Shown here one piece after another: positions 30,232 through 43,196 of a DNA stretch of 45,901 nt (positions are counted from its first letter, which is position 1; every line of letters begins with the position of its first letter). The translations under genes were made by a program, and so were the position numbers. This DNA comes from Escherichia phage vB_EcoS_Zar3M: the sequence record NC_073065.1. One strand, given 5' to 3'. The notes beneath the pieces were generated by a model that did no database searches, had not been told where the DNA came from, and was given only the letters and a program-made list of their open reading frames with translations.

Positions 30232-30294
30232 GGTGTTTTCCTTTTTCGGGGAGGCCGTATTGCCTCCCTGCGCGTTAACTATAGTGCAACCAAT

Positions 30295-31903: not shown

Positions 31904-31990
31904 CGTGTCGTCTCCAGGTATTAAAAAAGGGCGTCCAAACCGGACACCCTCAATATAACGCAACCAATATGATTATGCAACCAATTTACG
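31904..31990 (-). promoter_or_regulatory. promoter-like region with two ATTGGTTGC motifs
   Basis: On - strand: CGTAAATTGGTTGCATAATCATATTGGTTGCGTTATATT then RBS; shares 17/18 nt (ATGCAACCAATTTACGA) with 27285-27302. Confidence 0.4.
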
Positions 31991-35721: not shown

Positions 35722-35745
35722 TGGCGGGACAAGCCCGCCGTATTA
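35722..35745 (-). terminator. terminator-like hairpin (- strand)
   Basis: On - strand GGCGGGC-TTGT-CCCGCC followed by ATTTTT, just after the stop of 35747..35920. Confidence 0.4.
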
Positions 35746-38741: not shown

Positions 38742-38769
38742 TATTAAAAAGCCCGCATTAAGCGGGCTT
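38742..38769 (-). terminator. intrinsic terminator (- strand) after DUF2815 gene
   Basis: On - strand AAGCCCGC-TTAAT-GCGGGCTT followed by TTTTTAATAG. Confidence 0.55.
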
Positions 38770-38787: not shown

Positions 38788-39573
38788 TTAACGGCGGCGA
38801 CGTTTACGTGGTGCTTCGTCTTCGTCGTCTTCGTCCTCATCTTCGTCATCGCGGGNCTTGCGGCGTTTGCGAGGTTTTTCATCTTCCTCATCGTNGTCGT
38901 CATCGCGGGGCTTGGATTTCTTGGACTTGCGCGGCTTGTCATCCTCATCATCGTCATCACGACGTTTTGACTTCTTAGCCTTGCGCGGTGCTTCGTCTTC
39001 GTCGTCGTTGTCCAGGTCTTCGTCGGAACATGAAGACCCGCCACCTCCGAAGGCTTCGCCGTCTTCACGGAATCGCAGACCCAGCAAGCCCGCCCCGAGT
39101 CCCTTGCCGTTGGTATTGTTCCACGCCCAAATATCAAGTGACACGTTGCAATAACAACCGGAGTAGATCTCCTGGCCTTCGATCTCGTCGCCTTCTACGG
39201 TCAGACCTTGTTCAGTCTGCTTCTCGCCGAGTGACGTTTGAATGATAGGCTGTTTGAACGATTTGGCGTTGATATACAACATGCCTTCGAATTCTTCGGT
39301 AACTTCATCGCGCTCGTCGCCGTCGCGAACTGCACATTCCTTAGAATCCTGGGCGTAGTGGCGGTCCATCCACTTATCGGCATTCTTCTCAGATTTCAGC
39401 TTGTCGGTGAGCACTGCACGCGCTGCCGCTTCCACTTTGTCCACCTGCGGATCTTCTTTATCAAGAAGAATCACGGCACGGTATGCCGGTTTTTGTCCAT
39501 CCTGTTTAGGGGTATCACGTTCCCAAATTTTCAGGAAGCATACGCGCACATTTTTCAGGTTGNCTTTANCCAT
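38788..39573 (-). CDS. DUF2815-type phage SSB-like protein with charged repeat C-terminal tail
   Basis: N-terminal region resembles DUF2815 proteins found beside DUF2800 and PolA in phage replication modules; C-terminal ~90 aa alternate acidic runs with KPRKSKKSK-type basic blocks. Confidence 0.55.
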   Translation of the reverse strand: MXKXNLKNVRVCFLKIWERDTPKQDGQKPAYRAVILLDKEDPQVDKVEAAARAVLTDKLKSEKNADKWMDRHYAQDSKECAVRDGDERDEVTEEFEGMLYINAKSFKQPIIQTSLGEKQTEQGLTVEGDEIEGQEIYSGCYCNVSLDIWAWNNTNGKGLGAGLLGLRFREDGEAFGGGGSSCSDEDLDNDDEDEAPRKAKKSKRRDDDDEDDKPRKSKKSKPRDDDXDEEDEKPRKRRKXRDDEDEDEDDEDEAPRKRRRR

Positions 39574-39663
39574 TTTCCAATTCCTCNTTTTCACATNTNT
39601 NGGGGTTNTTNTGNGCCNCCCCNNCCGGCTTGGTTNNCAATTTACTTGGTTGCGCCTGAGCGG

Positions 39664-39906
39664 TCAAGCATTTTCATTAAAAAGATTTCTGGTAACGTAG
39701 TTGGTGGTGTTNTCNNNCCNNCTTAACGGNGGGNGGNCNCCATGTCTCGCGATCCACGCCACGGCAATGGTGCTGTAACCATCGTCCAGCCATTGGGTTG
39801 GATGACGAATCATCCAGGCCACCATTAAGACGCCTTGCACGCAATGCAGGATAAAGCCCAGCGCGCCGAGCAAAAACATCAATAAGATTGCGAATACTTT
39901 ATTCAT
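39664..39906 (-). CDS. small membrane protein (80 aa)
   Basis: Two hydrophobic segments (VFAILLMFLLGALGFIL, VLMVAWMI); start overlaps DUF2800 stop by 8 nt (ATGAATAA); n-masked 3' end. Confidence 0.35.
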   Translation of the reverse strand: MNKVFAILLMFLLGALGFILHCVQGVLMVAWMIRHPTQWLDDGYSTIAVAWIARHXXXXPLXXXXNTTNYVTRNLFNENA

Positions 39907-41329
39907 TGCTTAAGTCCTCGTCAGTAGCTACAGACCACGCAGGGCGCGGGTCGTCGATGGGTGCTAATACCGGTTTAGCGGGTGCGCGCGTGATTTTATC
40001 ACACAACTTTGCCCACACTTTCGGCTTCTCGTCCTTCAATACCTTCTCGGCATCAGTAGGGCTGAGTAATGTTTCTTTGTACATCACGTCGCGCTTGATC
40101 CGGGCCTTCGTGAAGATCTCAATCACTTCGCTCTCGTCCGCCCACTTGCGGATTCCTTCCTTACCGGCAACCATCTTGAGGCCCAGCGATTCNCCATCAC
40201 CCNCCATTACGGCCTTNAACNCCGCGGNCNCGANAGCCTTGNTNTGNTGGCGCNTTGNGNCAANACCTTCANAANCCTTNCGCNGTTCCNCCNCNCCCAN
40301 NGCNCNGGGGGGGNCTTTTTTTTTNCCCCNCTCCCCNCGNGGNNCCCCTTTGGGGGNTNNGGGGGCCATNTTGNGGNCGTGATTGGCGCATTCTTCCTCT
40401 GTCGAAATACTCACGTCGTCGCCCAGGTCTTCGTCTGTTGCCGTTGGTGGGGCCATAGTGTCGATTGCAGCCTTAGCGCGGGCGCTACACTGATCCGCAA
40501 ATCTGCACCATTGACACGCATCAACGCTCGGTCGGAAGTCGGCACGGGTGAGTCCCTTTTTGCCGCGGTCGTACGCTTCCAGGGCGGCGATAGCACGCTT
40601 GGACGCAAACTTCGCGAATATCTCCAGGGCTTCTACCGAAATATCCCACTCCGACGCCCCGCCGCAATACGGCTGGAAGATAACCAGGCGCACGGTCGTA
40701 ATGTCGTACATAGTTTTCAGCTTGCGCAGCAGGCCCAGCGCATACAACATAAGCTGTTTGTTTTCTTTCGCCTCGACCTTATGCCGCCCCGTCTTCAGGT
40801 CGCCAACAATCAGCATGTACGTGCCGTCGGTCTTCTTCATGACCATGACCATATCCGCAGTGCCGAACGTCTTAACCCGGTTGCCGTCGATCTCGAAGCC
40901 AGAGTGTAGGACGCGGGTAAGATCGGCGCGCATCTCAAGCTGAACAAACTCCGCCACTTCGAGGAGCGGTCGCCAGTGGTCGATGTATGCGTCGCACTGT
41001 TTCACCATGTCGTCGTTGACCAGCACGCCGCCTTTCGGTGCTTTCGGGTGCGCCTTCACCGGCCCCTTACCTTCGTTCTCGACGTAACACCCTTTGTACG
41101 TCTTCGCGGTTATCAGCTTTTCACCGGCGATAATGCGGTTGAGCACGACTTCAGATACAGTGTGCATACTCGTACCGTTAATCGCCGCTTGCCCGGATTC
41201 GTTCGGGATACCTTGTTCTACCACCAGGGCGGCTGGGCAACCCATCCATTTTTTAGCACCGGATGGGCCGAGTAATGAATGCTCCGTGTTGCTACCGGAT
41301 TGCGTTTTACGTTTTGGTTTAATCGCCAT
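39899..41329 (-). CDS. DUF2800-type PD-(D/E)XK nuclease (Cas4-like, Cys cluster)
   Basis: N-terminal LLGPSGAKKWMGCPAA and C-terminal CQWCRFADQC Cys cluster, as in Cas4/RecB-like phage exonucleases. Confidence 0.65.
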   Translation of the reverse strand: MAIKPKRKTQSGSNTEHSLLGPSGAKKWMGCPAALVVEQGIPNESGQAAINGTSMHTVSEVVLNRIIAGEKLITAKTYKGCYVENEGKGPVKAHPKAPKGGVLVNDDMVKQCDAYIDHWRPLLEVAEFVQLEMRADLTRVLHSGFEIDGNRVKTFGTADMVMVMKKTDGTYMLIVGDLKTGRHKVEAKENKQLMLYALGLLRKLKTMYDITTVRLVIFQPYCGGASEWDISVEALEIFAKFASKRAIAALEAYDRGKKGLTRADFRPSVDACQWCRFADQCSARAKAAIDTMAPPTATDEDLGDDVSISTEEECANHXXXMAPXXPKGXXXGEXXKKKXPPXXXXXXEXXKXXEGXXXXRXXXKAXXXAXXKAVMXGDXESLGLKMVAGKEGIRKWADESEVIEIFTKARIKRDVMYKETLLSPTDAEKVLKDEKPKVWAKLCDKITRAPAKPVLAPIDDPRPAWSVATDEDLSNE

Positions 41330-41782: not shown

Positions 41783-41809
41783 AAAAATAGGCCCGCAGAT
41801 TAGCGGGCC
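41783..41809 (-). terminator. intrinsic terminator (- strand)
   Basis: On - strand GGCCCGC-TAATCT-GCGGGCC followed by TATTTTT. Confidence 0.5.
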
Positions 41810-41817
41810 GGAATATA

Positions 41818-41943
41818 TTAATCTTCACCGCCGAGTTGTCTATAAACCTCGTCCGGGTCGTCGCCTCTTTCTTCGCAGAAGGCGGTGAACGCCGCCCAAT
41901 TTTCTGCTATGAAATCGAGCATGATTCTCATTTCATAGTCCAT
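41818..41943 (-). CDS. small acidic hypothetical protein (41 aa)
   Basis: Unlisted ORF MDYEMRIMLDFIAENWAAFTAFCEERGDDPDEVYRQLGGED between acidic repeat protein and terminator. Confidence 0.25.
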   Translation of the reverse strand: MDYEMRIMLDFIAENWAAFTAFCEERGDDPDEVYRQLGGED

Positions 41944-41947
41944 GATA

Positions 41948-42463
41948 TTAATCTTCCAGTTCGAAATAGGTTTCGACGATTTCTTTTAGCTCTTTGTGGA
42001 AGTCTTCGACGTCGTCATCTTCCAGCTTGGCGATTGATTTGATCTCGAACGATTCCAGCAGGTCGTCGAATTCGTCGTTCGCATCGTCGTCATCACCACC
42101 GGCGATAATCGCGGCATACTGTTTGATTTCGTCGCGCATCTCCGCCAGCGGATCGGCATCTTTCTTACCTTTGCCTTTCGCCGGTGCTTTCTTAGACTTA
42201 GCCGGTTTTTCGTCTTCGGCATCGTCGTCGTCATCTTCTACGACTTCTTTTTTAGCCTTACCTTTCGCCGGTGCTTTTTTAGCTTTAGCCGGTTTTTCGT
42301 CTTCGGCGTCATCGTCGTCATCTTCGACAACTTCTTTTTTGGCCTTAGACGGCTTCTTGTCTTCCTGTTTACCAACGGCAGCGCCAACGGTTTCATAATG
42401 CTTTGCAATGGTTTCCAGTGCTACTACGCCGCGAGTGATCAGGTTTACGATTTGCTCAAACAT
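41948..42463 (-). CDS. highly charged tandem-repeat protein (171 aa)
   Basis: ATG at 42463 with GGAGATATACATG; contains a 2x tandem repeat KKEVVEDDDDDAEDEKPAK(A/S)KKAPAKGK (DNA direct repeat about 60 bp at 42200-42330) plus acidic C-terminal region. Confidence 0.5.
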   Translation of the reverse strand: MFEQIVNLITRGVVALETIAKHYETVGAAVGKQEDKKPSKAKKEVVEDDDDDAEDEKPAKAKKAPAKGKAKKEVVEDDDDDAEDEKPAKSKKAPAKGKGKKDADPLAEMRDEIKQYAAIIAGGDDDDANDEFDDLLESFEIKSIAKLEDDDVEDFHKELKEIVETYFELED

Positions 42464-42699
42464 GGTATATCTCCGATTGGTTAAGTTTAGGTGTCGGCAG
42501 TTAACTTCGTCGGTGGCCTTAACATATTGCCAGGTTACGCGTTCTCCCGTTCGGGTAGTGGACCTGGTTATATAATCACGGTTGGGAATCCTGACACTTC
42601 GATCCGGCCCCTGCGTTGCCCCTCTCCAGTTTGCGTCCTGCATCCTGTCGACGGAGTGAATGATAGATTGGTTGGAGGAGGGGTGTCAACAACTAATTT

Positions 42700-42734
42700 C
42701 AAAAAAAAAAGCGCCGAGGCAAAATGCGACGGCG
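42700..42734 (-). terminator. intrinsic terminator (- strand) inside the divergent control region
   Basis: On - strand GCGCCG-N12-CGGCGC followed by T10 (plus-strand A10 at 42701-42710); no - strand gene lies upstream. Confidence 0.5.
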
Positions 42735-42754
42735 CTAACCAATAAGAGACAATG

Positions 42755-42795
42755 AGACGGGAATTATTATTACACGCGTGCGCGACCGTTTCAAT
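42755..42795 (-). promoter_or_regulatory. sigma70-like promoter (- strand) firing into the terminator at 42700-42734
   Basis: On - strand TTGAAA-N17-AATAAT; predicted start about 50-60 nt upstream of the T10 tract. Confidence 0.35.
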
Positions 42796-42805
42796 ATCCA
42801 AAGGA

Positions 42806-42834
42806 TTTGACACCGTGCAGTTTTGGGTGTAGTT
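42806..42834 (+). promoter_or_regulatory. sigma70-like promoter for regulator/primase operon
   Basis: Perfect -35 TTGACA (42806-42811), 17-nt spacer, weak -10 TAGTTT; about 30 nt upstream of ATG at 42867. Confidence 0.4.
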
Positions 42835-42866
42835 TCGTTGGTCATTAACCAACTGAGGGCTGAATT

Positions 42867-43196
42867 ATGAATATCAAAGAAGCAATTGAAGTGTTATCTA
42901 ATGCAATCCGCGGCGAAGCGGGTAAATCCTGGTATTACACAAATGCGGTGGATACTCTGTTATTTGAAGTCGTCCGATTACGCAGTGCTGAGAAGGAGTT
43001 ACGCGCGAAGCTGGAACTACTCAATGGTACGGCAGCCAGCAAGCTGCAAAAGCANAATGAAGAAATGGAAGAATACAAAAAGCAGGTTATCCGTTTGCGC
43101 GACGAAGGGAAATCATGGGCGATGATTGCAGAGCTAACCGGAATTAATCAGAGCACCGTGCGATCCTGGGTACGCAATAATAAAACCTCTAAGTAA
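42867..43196 (+). CDS. helix-turn-helix DNA-binding regulator (109 aa)
   Basis: C-terminal HTH-like GKSWAMIAELTGINQSTVRSWVRNN; N-terminal coiled-coil-like region; first gene of + operon. Confidence 0.5.
   Translation: MNIKEAIEVLSNAIRGEAGKSWYYTNAVDTLLFEVVRLRSAEKELRAKLELLNGTAASKLQKXNEEMEEYKKQVIRLRDEGKSWAMIAELTGINQSTVRSWVRNNKTSK

What the first reader, a model, noticed from the sequence alone, without database searches (positions are those of the whole stretch)
42700..42866. Promoter-terminator pair on the minus strand within the divergent control region (short transcript or attenuator)
A sigma70-like promoter (TTGAAA-N17-AATAAT, minus strand, about 42755-42795) points directly into a strong intrinsic terminator (stem plus T10, 42700-42734) with no gene between them. 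The predicted product is a 50-60 nt RNA, as with lambda PR'/tR' and its 6S RNA. This could be an antitermination-controlled entry into the minus-strand replication operon, or a small regulatory RNA antisense to the opposite transcripts.
Basis: inference. Interest (0 to 1): 0.5.

Follow-up and report, generated by a model that had tools for sequence, protein, structure and literature searches.

The report
Orphan small-RNA gene in coliphage control region
A strong bacterial-type promoter that runs straight into a strong terminator is really there and is conserved in every known phage of this genus, so it most likely makes a roughly 57-nucleotide regulatory RNA rather than acting as a gate into the replication genes.

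Summary
The window is a Dhillonvirus, an HK578-like virulent coliphage whose coordinates match phage PTXU06. On the minus strand, TTGAAA-N17-TGT-AATAAT (42794..42766) is followed by a 7-bp GC stem and U10 (42736..42701). No conserved ORF lies between them, and the predicted RNA is about 57 nt.

The unit appears to be in all 153 Dhillonvirus records. Both hexamers are invariant and the discriminator varies. The transcribed 22-23 nt, starting at the predicted +1, have no substitutions. The stem shows two double compensatory changes.

The lambda PR'/tR' reading fails:
- A near-consensus second promoter (42689..42660) starts 11 bp after the U-tract.
- No Q/N-like protein family was found.
- The genes downstream are early replication genes.

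The RNA is also not cis-antisense here, because the rightward promoter diverges from it.

Best reading: a stand-alone, oop-like small RNA gene that acts in trans. Its seed is complementary to the Shine-Dalgarno regions of both flanking first genes, but that support is weak. Distant relatives of the primase carry an analogous opposite-strand unit immediately upstream of the primase start codon.

Separately, the leader after the second promoter is a roughly 160-nt structured RNA. It has 21 covarying pairs, has no Rfam 15 match and occurs in several phage genera.

The parts
42789..42794 (-). P1 -35 hexamer, TTGAAA
   Evidence: Found. Invariant in 20 unique Dhillonvirus sequences.
42766..42774 (-). 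P1 extended -10, TGT-AATAAT, with a 17-bp spacer to the -35
   Evidence: Found. The hexamer is invariant.
42759..42765 (-). Discriminator between the -10 and the predicted start. This is the only poorly conserved stretch of the unit.
   Evidence: All 7 columns vary and mean pairwise identity is 0.72.
42701..42758 (-). Predicted small RNA of about 57 nt: GUCUCAUUGUCUCUUAUUGGUU, then the terminator hairpin, then the U tail
   Evidence: The start is inferred from promoter geometry and the end from the terminator. There is no experimental support.
42737..42758 (-). Single-stranded 5' part, the candidate seed. It contains two GUCUC repeats and AUUGGUU.
   Evidence: Predicted unpaired. No substitutions in 20 unique sequences. 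Only two indel events: a 1-nt deletion in the LM40P1 clade and a 5-nt duplication in Opt212.
42710..42736 (-). Terminator hairpin t1: 7-bp stem, 13-nt loop with a small inner stem
   Evidence: Fold of -17 kcal/mol, z = -3.0. The stem changes from AGCGCCG/CGGCGCU to AUCCCCG/CGGGGAU in L007/L036, L052 and L053, which is two pairs changed on both sides. Annotated as a terminator in the CS16 and WF5505 records.
42701..42710 (-). U10 tail, which is 8-13 U in relatives. On the DNA it is also the A/T-rich tract just upstream of the P2 -35.
   Evidence: The UP-element role is inference.
42660..42689 (-). P2, TTGACA-N18-TATCAT: the operon's own promoter. In relatives its spacer carries a GCAACCAAT operator-like site; the window has CCAACCAAT.
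   Evidence: 11 of 12 matches. Conserved. Annotated as a promoter in the HK578 record. Motif data.
42470..42484 (-). Candidate target site UUAACCAAUCGGAGA, covering the Shine-Dalgarno of gp61 (start codon at 42463)
   Evidence: A 14-nt inverted repeat with the seed. My hand count gives 14 of 15 positions pairing. Predicted duplex of -18.0 kcal/mol, ranked 6 of 63 start regions, shuffled-seed p = 0.0045.
42846..42861 (+). Candidate target site UUAACCAAC-N-GAGGG in the roughly 24-nt 5' UTR of gp62
   Evidence: Ranked 3 of 63 in PTXU06, shuffled-seed p = 0.013. Absent from HK578, which carries a different gene there.
42808..42836 (+). Divergent rightward promoter, TTGACA-N17-TAGTTT, for the gp62 (HTH) and primase-helicase operon
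   Evidence: Read from the sequence. Conserved. The equivalent site in HK578 is annotated as a promoter.
42493..42652 (-). Context, not part of the unit: the structured leader RNA at the 5' end of P2 transcripts
   Evidence: Covariance-model hit of 149.9 bits, E = 8e-37. 21 of 42 pairs change on both sides.

Best explanation
The pair is a self-contained early transcription unit, in effect a small-RNA gene.

**Predicted from sequence and conservation, with no transcript data.** Host sigma70 RNA polymerase should start at about 42758 and stop at the intrinsic terminator about 57 nt later. The product would have an unstructured, pyrimidine-rich 5' part of 22-23 nt, a GC hairpin and a long U tail. 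That is the usual build of an enterobacterial Hfq-binding small RNA.

**Position.** The unit sits beside the replication module and points away from the primase operon, as the lambda oop RNA does. In this genus nothing is transcribed opposite to it.

**Inferred.** The RNA acts in trans through its invariant 5' part. The best candidate targets are the ribosome-binding regions of gp61 and gp62, the first genes of the two divergent early operons. Pairing there would dampen early translation as the RNA accumulates. Host mRNAs could not be examined.

**Side effects of the terminator.** It keeps P1 transcription from running over P2. It also places a T-rich tract where an UP element for P2 would lie.
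For: - **Promoter and terminator quality:**
- **Present across the genus:** 153 records carry the unit and 153 carry the primase, with the same organism breakdown.
- **Conservation follows the RNA, not only the DNA signals.** The hexamers are invariant and all 7 discriminator columns vary. The transcribed 5' part has no substitutions from the predicted +1 onward. By comparison, mean pairwise identity is 0.77-0.86 in neighbouring non-coding stretches.
- **The stem is kept by compensation:** two pairs changed on both sides in one clade.
- **No coding potential:**
- **No alternative fold** competes with the terminator.
- **Seed complementarity:** a 14-nt inverted repeat with the gp61 Shine-Dalgarno region. 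The two neighbouring start regions rank 6 and 3 of 63. Shuffled seeds reach those energies in 0.45% and 1.3% of trials, and both together in 0 of 2000.
- **An analogous unit in relatives:** all ten distant relatives of the primase carry an opposite-strand terminator unit of 66-84 nt immediately upstream of the primase start codon. A promoter scoring 8-10 of 12 was found in nine of them.
Against: - There are no transcript data. No transcript map of a Dhillonvirus turned up in the paper library.
- The target prediction is weak:
  - Scanned genome-wide, many sites pair as well or better.
  - HK578 keeps the RNA but lacks the gp62 site.
  - In the LM40P1 clade the changes in the seed and in the gp61 site are not compensatory. 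The cognate duplex is -13.3 kcal/mol against -18.0 in the main clade.
- The shared TAACCAA core resembles a DNA motif, GCAACCAA, found 20 times against 1.4 expected and mostly at promoters. Part of the conservation could therefore be operator DNA.
- The whole genus is only 2-10% divergent, so invariance over 23 nt is suggestive rather than decisive.
- The compensatory stem changes come from a single clade, so they may reflect very few events.
Confidence: 0.5

Rival explanations
1. A DNA-level control element rather than an RNA gene. On this view P1 and its terminator serve the neighbouring promoters or the replication module. P1 could be a back-to-back partner of the rightward promoter, with coupling through supercoiling or polymerase recruitment. 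The AACCAA sites at P1 (+15 to +22), in the P2 spacer and at the rightward +3 to +11 would be operators for a phage regulator such as gp62. Alternatively, transcription here could activate a nearby origin, as has been argued for lambda pO. The RNA itself would be a by-product.
For: - GCAACCAA occurs 20 times against 1.4 expected. By my reading of the site positions against the PTXU06 gene table, most sites are intergenic and lie in promoter spacers or just after -10 elements, including P2.
- gp62 is a small HTH protein.
- The unit keeps its place beside the primase across relatives even though its sequence is not conserved.
- The local minimum of cumulative GC skew lies at about 42-43 kb.
- A review states that pO matters for lambda replication control (PMC12197685).
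Against: - An operator explains 7-9 bp, not an invariant 22-23 nt that begins exactly at the predicted +1.
- A by-product RNA would not need a stem maintained by compensatory changes, although termination itself would need one.
- No iterons or clustered repeats typical of an origin were found in 42440-42900.
- GC skew in phages largely follows the direction of transcription.
Confidence: 0.2
2. An attenuator, or antitermination-controlled entry. P1 transcripts stop at t1 until a phage factor lets them read through into the leftward operon. A simpler version is that leaky read-through gives basal expression once P2 is repressed.
For: - P1, t1 and the operon are collinear.
- The leftward operon contains further intrinsic terminators at 41790-41809, 38751-38767, 35723-35739 and 31929-31949, so read-through matters somewhere.
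- P2 carries an operator-like site and may be shut off later.
Against: - P2 lies immediately after t1 and is a better match to consensus than P1.
- No Q, N or other known antiterminator family was found.
- No competing antiterminator fold exists, and there is no conserved leader peptide.
- By my reading of the sequence, the early transcribed region has no -10-like pause element.
- Read-through does not explain why the 5' part of the transcript is invariant.
Confidence: 0.1
3. A vestige. The unit would be an oop-like or PRM-like unit inherited from a temperate ancestor. It is still transcribed but no longer has a function, and it is retained because it overlaps the signals of P2 and the rightward promoter.
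For: - Relatives with Cro/CI-type HTH genes carry an analogous unit in an oop-like position.
- In Dhillonvirus it has lost any antisense partner.
Against: - It is universally retained, with invariant hexamers, an invariant transcribed part and a compensated stem, across 153 genomes.
- Those same genomes readily gain and lose the neighbouring 150-nt leader element.
Confidence: 0.1
4. A cis-antisense RNA against rightward transcripts.
For: This holds by position for the analogous units in L039-L048. There they lie inside the rightward operon, between an upstream gene (an HTH gene in the four loci tested) and the primase.
Against: In this window the rightward promoter is upstream of P1 and divergent from it. 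No plus-strand gene or promoter lies to the left. The RNA therefore overlaps no known opposite transcript.
Confidence: 0.03

Closest known systems
Lambda oop RNA (pO-tO, 77 nt)
   Same: A short transcript from a host-type promoter, ended by an intrinsic terminator. It lies beside the replication genes and is transcribed away from them. The analogous units in L039-L048 sit between a regulator-type gene and the replication gene, as oop does (PMC12197685).
   Different: oop overlaps the 3' end of cII and acts as its antisense. The Dhillonvirus RNA overlaps nothing. No sequence similarity was found, and Dhillonviruses are virulent.
Lambda 6S RNA and StxS (pR'-tR' short transcripts)
   Same: A constitutive promoter runs into a nearby terminator. 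StxS is listed in the review as a 74-nt trans-acting phage RNA (PMC12197685). From my own knowledge, it is the prematurely terminated pR' transcript and binds Hfq.
   Different: Those units gate the late operon through Q. Here there is no Q-like gene, a separate promoter follows the terminator, and the downstream genes are early.
Hfq-dependent trans-acting phage small RNAs (lambda PreS, VP882 VpdS, DicF, AgvB, AsxR)
   Same: Sizes of 50-90 nt, an independent promoter, a terminator hairpin with a U tail, and a conserved single-stranded seed (PMC12197685; bioRxiv 10.1101/2024.10.31.621285, listed).
   Different: Those examples all come from temperate phages or prophages and have tested targets. 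This one is from a strictly virulent genus and nothing about it has been tested. It has no homologue in 5,426 E. coli genomes, and the 17-mer scan of species-representative genomes gave only chance matches.
HK022 put RNAs and other leader RNAs at early promoters (comparison for the neighbouring leader RNA only)
   Same: A structured RNA at the very 5' end of an early phage transcript, upstream of an operon that contains terminators. The put comparison rests on my own knowledge.
   Different: put is about 70 nt with two stem-loops. This RNA is about 160 nt and multi-branched. Congeners that lack it keep the same downstream terminator, so it is not required for read-through.

Membership tests
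Q-dependent late-gene antitermination unit (lambda pR'-tR') | A constitutive sigma70 promoter followed within about 200 nt by an intrinsic terminator, giving a short RNA | tested here: met
   The predicted RNA is about 57 nt.
Q-dependent late-gene antitermination unit (lambda pR'-tR') | A Q-family antiterminator gene, normally just upstream of the promoter | tested here: not met
   No antiterminator family among 10 + 37 proteins scanned against Pfam. The gene upstream is a divergent HTH gene. A novel antiterminator cannot be excluded.
Q-dependent late-gene antitermination unit (lambda pR'-tR') | A -10-like, sigma-dependent pause element in the initially transcribed region | tested here: not met
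   By my reading of the sequence, GUCUCAUUGUCUCUUAUUGGUUAG contains no TAnnnT hexamer. This is a pattern check only.
Q-dependent late-gene antitermination unit (lambda pR'-tR') | Downstream genes depend on read-through and have no promoter of their own | tested here: not met
   P2 (11 of 12 matches) starts 11 bp after the U-tract and is conserved. Homologous leader RNAs in other genera are each preceded by a -10-like hexamer.
oop-type RNA of lambdoid phages | A short, terminator-ended transcript beside the replication genes and on the opposite strand | tested here: met
   An analogous terminator unit is present in all 10 distant relatives, with a good promoter match in 9.
oop-type RNA of lambdoid phages | Overlaps, and is antisense to, the upstream regulator gene or its mRNA | tested here: not met
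   There is no opposite transcript in this window. The condition is met by position in L039-L048.
oop-type RNA of lambdoid phages | Sequence or structure homology to oop | tested here: inconclusive
   No Rfam family matched at E up to 10 beyond terminator-only noise. I did not compare directly with a lambda sequence.
Hfq-binding trans-acting small RNA | Own promoter, and a Rho-independent terminator with a U tail of at least 6-7 nt | tested here: met
   The tail is 8-13 U.
Hfq-binding trans-acting small RNA | A conserved single-stranded seed | tested here: met
   Predicted unpaired. No substitutions in 20 unique sequences.
Hfq-binding trans-acting small RNA | A U/A-rich stretch just 5' of the terminator hairpin | tested here: met
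   UCUUAUUGGUU directly precedes the stem. That this forms part of the Hfq module is from general knowledge.
Hfq-binding trans-acting small RNA | Binds Hfq or ProQ and regulates an mRNA by pairing | not testable with these tools
   Only predicted pairing to the gp61 and gp62 start regions is available. The host transcriptome was not available.
Transcription attenuator (riboswitch or leader-peptide type) | An alternative structure competing with the terminator, or a conserved leader ORF | tested here: not met
   The minimum-energy and centroid folds show only the terminator hairpin. The ORFs are broken by indels.

The most novel reading that the evidence does not exclude
A strictly virulent coliphage genus encodes a trans-acting small RNA descended from a cis-antisense, oop-like RNA of its temperate-type relatives. 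The RNA now pairs with the ribosome-binding sites of the first genes of both divergent early operons, and possibly with host mRNAs, to time the shut-down of early expression. It would work beside a second, previously unclassified structured leader RNA that moves horizontally between phage genera.
Probability: 0.15. Interest if true: 0.7.

Novelty: new member of a known kind. Interest (0 to 1): 0.45.

Why it matters
Almost all characterised phage small RNAs come from temperate phages and prophages (PMC12197685). Dhillonviruses are virulent, and papers on them in the library frame them as therapy candidates, so a genus-wide small-RNA gene at the centre of their early control region would extend RNA-based regulation to lytic phages. 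It would also give a small, easily mutated handle on early gene timing.

The comparison with distant primase relatives suggests that a short opposite-strand transcript next to the replication module is a recurrent design. That makes the old question of what oop-type units do testable in new systems.

The neighbouring leader RNA is a well-supported structured RNA family of unknown function.

Tried and rejected
- **Rfam.** Searches of the region, and of four other loci carrying the leader RNA, found no family. The weak hits (ncS54, STnc480, GcvB 3' end) match only the generic terminator.
- **Homologues of the small RNA outside the genus.** None in 5,426 E. coli genomes. A 17-mer scan of species-representative genomes gave 28 hits, none of which carries the flanking hairpin and U-tract. 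By my estimate about 70 chance hits were expected, so these are chance matches.
- **Coding potential.** The 36-aa minus-strand and 26-aa plus-strand ORFs are rejected because relatives carry 1-nt indels inside them.
- **Genome-wide duplex scan.** It did not discriminate. The neighbouring sites are not among the top 25 of about 27,000 windows. The test was then restricted to the 63 annotated start regions.
- **Co-evolution of seed and gp61 site in the LM40P1 clade.** Not supported.
- **A loose pattern scan for more leader RNAs.** It returned only noise. The covariance model found nothing in 100 of those loci.
- **tRNA or tmRNA.** None found.
- **Literature.** No transcript map of a Dhillonvirus was found. 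The large catalogue of candidate phage RNAs (PMC10690425) could not be checked because its supplements are not held.
- **Leader RNA as a put-like antiterminator.** Weakened, because congeners without the leader keep the same downstream terminator.

Full report
**What the window is.** The 451 bp around the finding match 191 phage records. The full-length matches are Dhillonviruses, which are HK578/SSL-2009a-like virulent coliphages. Coordinates coincide with Escherichia phage vB_EcoS_PTXU06 (NC_073064, 45,904 bp), whose gene table I used. The window differs from it by scattered substitutions and 577 N. Within the unit only 42765 and 42785 differ, and neither lies in a hexamer, the transcribed part or the stem.

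**Observation.**
- On the minus strand, TTGAAA (42794-42789), a 17-bp spacer and TGT-AATAAT (42774-42766) form a 10-of-12 promoter with an extended -10 TG.
- About 22 nt after the predicted start (G42758) comes a hairpin. Its stem pairs 42736-42730 with 42716-42710, and U10 follows (42710-42701).
- The fold is -17 kcal/mol with z = -3.0.
- The simple terminator scan missed it because the loop is 13 nt.
- Promoter-like patterns alone are no more frequent than in shuffles.
- The A10/T10 run is the longest homopolymer in the genome. Only four runs of 7 or more exist, and this one is adjacent to the most stable hairpin scored beside such a run.
- The predicted product is about 57 nt.

**Conservation.**
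- The 171-bp region is found in 153 phage records. The 5' part of the primase gene is found in 153 records with an identical breakdown by organism and host. The unit therefore appears to be present in every Dhillonvirus in the collection.
- It is at least as conserved as the primase coding sequence. Seventy-eight of 153 records are at least 95% identical for the unit, against 14 of 153 for the primase segment.
- In 20 unique sequences both P1 hexamers are invariant, while all seven discriminator positions between the -10 and the predicted start vary.
- From the predicted +1 onward, the 22-23 nt GTCTCATTGTCTCTTATTGGTTA show no substitution. There is one 1-nt deletion (LM40P1 clade) and one 5-nt duplication (Opt212).
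- In the LM40P1 clade the stem changes from AGCGCCG/CGGCGCT to ATCCCCG/CGGGGAT. Two pairs are changed on both sides and pairing is kept.
- The U-tract varies from 8 to 13.
- The two short ORFs that overlap the region are broken by 1-nt indels in relatives.
- GenBank records already annotate pieces of this by pattern: three promoters in HK578 and the terminator in CS16 and WF5505. I found no description of the unit as an RNA gene.

**Surroundings.**
- Eleven base pairs after the U-tract begins a second leftward promoter, P2. It is TTGACA-N18-TATCAT (42689-42660), matches 11 of 12 positions and is conserved.
- P2 drives a long leftward operon, gp61 to gp39, from 42463 down to about 29162. It includes a PD-(D/E)XK nuclease, a Gp2.5/Enc34-like ssDNA-binding protein and the DNA polymerase.
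- To the right, a divergent promoter, TTGACA-N17-TAGTTT (42808-42836), drives gp62 and the primase-helicase. gp62 is 109 aa with a C-terminal HTH.
- The predicted P1 and rightward start sites are about 85 bp apart and point away from each other.

- Antitermination-controlled entry is unlikely:
  - P2 gives the operon its own entry.
  - Pfam finds no Q, N or other antiterminator family in 47 non-structural proteins.
  - The early transcript has no TAnnnT pause element, by my reading of the sequence.
  - No fold competes with the terminator.
  - The downstream genes are early genes.
- Cis-antisense action is excluded in this window, because no opposite-strand transcript is expected to cross 42700-42760.

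**What it most likely is.** It has the features of a stand-alone small-RNA gene:
- a strong host-type promoter;
- an invariant unstructured 5' part that starts at +1;
- a U/A-rich stretch before a GC hairpin;
- a long U tail.

This is the standard build of enterobacterial Hfq-dependent small RNAs (general knowledge). The RNA is specific to the genus. It has no relative in 5,426 E. coli genomes. The 28 17-mer matches in species-representative genomes all lack the flanking hairpin and U-tract, so they are chance matches. No Rfam family matched.

**Candidate targets.**
- The seed GUCUCUUAUUGGUUA pairs at 14 of 15 positions with UAACCAAUCGGAGAU, by my hand count. That sequence covers the Shine-Dalgarno of gp61. 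The repeat finder reports the same pair as a 14-nt inverted repeat.
- The short 5' UTR of gp62 carries UUAACCAAC followed by its Shine-Dalgarno.
- Among the 63 annotated start regions of PTXU06 these two rank 6th and 3rd. Shuffled seeds do as well in 0.45% and 1.3% of trials, and never for both at once in 2000 trials.
- This is suggestive only:
  - A scan of the whole genome finds many equal or better duplexes.
  - HK578 has a different gene and UTR in place of gp62.
  - The changes in the LM40P1 clade are not compensatory.
- The AACCAA core is also part of a DNA motif. GCAACCAA occurs 20 times against 1.4 expected. By my reading of the site positions against the gene table, most copies are intergenic and sit in promoter spacers or just after -10 elements, including the P2 spacer. 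It looks like the operator of a phage regulator, with gp62 as the obvious candidate.
- That supports a rival reading in which part of the conservation is at the DNA level.

**A comparative lead.**
- Ten IMG/VR contigs encode primase-helicases 37-45% identical to this one.
- Each has a gap of about 125 nt between an upstream same-strand ORF and the primase start codon. That ORF was a Cro/CI-type HTH protein in the four loci where a match was found (L039's HTH gene lies one ORF further upstream; the L047 ORF gave no match).
- In every contig the gap holds a GC hairpin with a T6-T10 tract on the opposite strand. In nine, a sigma70-like promoter scoring 8-10 of 12 lies 66-84 nt upstream of the tract. 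In the tenth (L048) I saw only a weaker TTGATT-N17-TTTAAT by eye.
- The sequences cannot be aligned to the Dhillonvirus RNA, but the design and its orientation relative to the primase are the same.
- The position matches that of lambda oop, between cII and O (PMC12197685). In those relatives the RNA would be antisense to the rightward polycistronic mRNA.
- In Dhillonvirus the unit lies outside the rightward operon. Either it acts in trans or the act of transcription next to the replication module is what matters.

**Verdict.**
- The lambda PR'/tR' interpretation is not supported.
- The small-RNA interpretation is supported in modified form: trans-acting, oop-like in position.
- I put 0.5 on a functional small-RNA gene and 0.2 on a mainly DNA-level role. 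I put 0.1 each on attenuation or read-through and on a vestige, and 0.03 on cis-antisense action.
- It is a new member of a known kind.

**Noticed next door.**
- The first 160 nt or so of P2 transcripts (42652-42493, minus strand) form a multi-branched structured RNA.
- It is at least 99% identical in 73 Dhillonvirus records. It is cleanly absent, as an indel of about 150 nt, from a minority: WF5505, YD-2008.s, Envy, LM40P1 and others.
- Homologues occur in Drexlerviridae (Motto, JLBYU07, slyngel, KMI8), Murrayvirus, Sortsnevirus, Alux-21, Serratia MQ-4 and Enterobacter Arya.
- In the eight such loci I examined, it lies between genes on its own strand. In the five whose sequence I read, a -10-like hexamer lies just upstream. 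The downstream genes in seven of them fall in different families of unknown function.
- On a plain MAFFT alignment, 96.7% of cells pair, against 30-44% when partners are slid. Fifteen of 32 pairs change on both sides, against 2-5 when slid.
- After realignment to a covariance model, 21 of 42 pairs do so, including the closing helix.
- It matches no Rfam 15 family and is absent from E. coli genomes.
- Its function is unknown. Patchy presence within a genus and high identity between genera point to a mobile accessory module.

Noticed in passing
window 42493-42652, minus strand (also L019-L023, L049-L051, L059, L060, L063, L066, L069, L071, L073, L076): A structured RNA of about 160 nt at the 5' end of P2 transcripts. 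It has 21 of 42 base pairs with compensatory changes and long invariant junctions (GGAGAG, CAACGCAGGGGC, GGAUUCCCAACCGUGA, AGAACGC, CGACGAAG). It occurs in about 170 phage records across Dhillonvirus, Drexlerviridae, Murrayvirus, Sortsnevirus and others. It has no Rfam 15 match and is absent from E. coli genomes. Function unknown. It may be among the unnamed candidates of PMC10690425, which I could not check.
   Followed up: yes
L004 (WF5505), L007, L010 (YD-2008.s), L013 (Envy), L016, L052, L053, compared with window 42490-42640: The leader RNA is a presence/absence polymorphism within the genus. A minority of Dhillonviruses have about 20 unrelated nt in its place, with identical flanks and the same downstream terminator. 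That suggests a mobile accessory module.
   Followed up: partly
PTXU06 (L079) coordinates, equal to window coordinates within a few bp: 48, 605, 3332, 11242, 11256, 27287, 30286/30305, 31960, 31977, 35977, 39637, 39653, 42675, 45491, 45545, 45580, 45854: GCAACCAA(T) occurs 20 times against 1.4 expected. Most copies are intergenic, often in tandem or as a palindrome (GCAACCAACCTATTGGTTGC at 30286). They typically lie in the 3' half of promoter spacers (TTGAC-N8/9-GCAACCAAY, then the -10) or just after a -10. This is probably the operator of a phage regulator, and the HTH protein gp62 is a candidate.
   Followed up: partly
L039-L048, positions about 1864-1990 (opposite strand to the primase gene, which starts at 2001): All ten distant relatives of the primase-helicase carry a terminator hairpin with a T-tract on the opposite strand, immediately upstream of the primase start codon. 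Nine have a good sigma70-like promoter 66-84 nt upstream of it. The upstream same-strand gene was a Cro/CI-type HTH gene in the four loci where a match was found. The arrangement is oop-like.
   Followed up: partly
L054 (Opt212) and L007/L036, L052, L053: These are the only natural variants of the small RNA's 5' part. Opt212 has a 5-nt duplication (TTGTC). The LM40P1 clade has a 1-nt deletion in AUUGGUUA together with the compensated stem change. They would be useful natural mutants.
   Followed up: no
L003 (HK578), 1918-2346: HK578 has a different, 142-aa gene with an unrelated 5' UTR in the place of gp62. P1, t1 and P2 are unchanged.
   Followed up: no
window 41790-41842, minus strand: A promoter-like site, TAGACA-N16-TAATAT (41842..41815), ends 6 nt before the stem of a strong internal terminator (41809-41790). 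This lies between gp60 and gp59 of the leftward operon. The arrangement is unexplained.
   Followed up: no
window 41948-42463 and 38788-39573, minus strand; whole window: gp61 and the C-terminus of the Gp2.5-like ssDNA-binding protein carry alternating acidic and lysine-rich repeats (the jat record marks a repeat region in the gp61 homologue). The window also contains 577 N, clustered for example around 39570-39700 and 40250-40400, and differs from PTXU06 by scattered substitutions.
   Followed up: no
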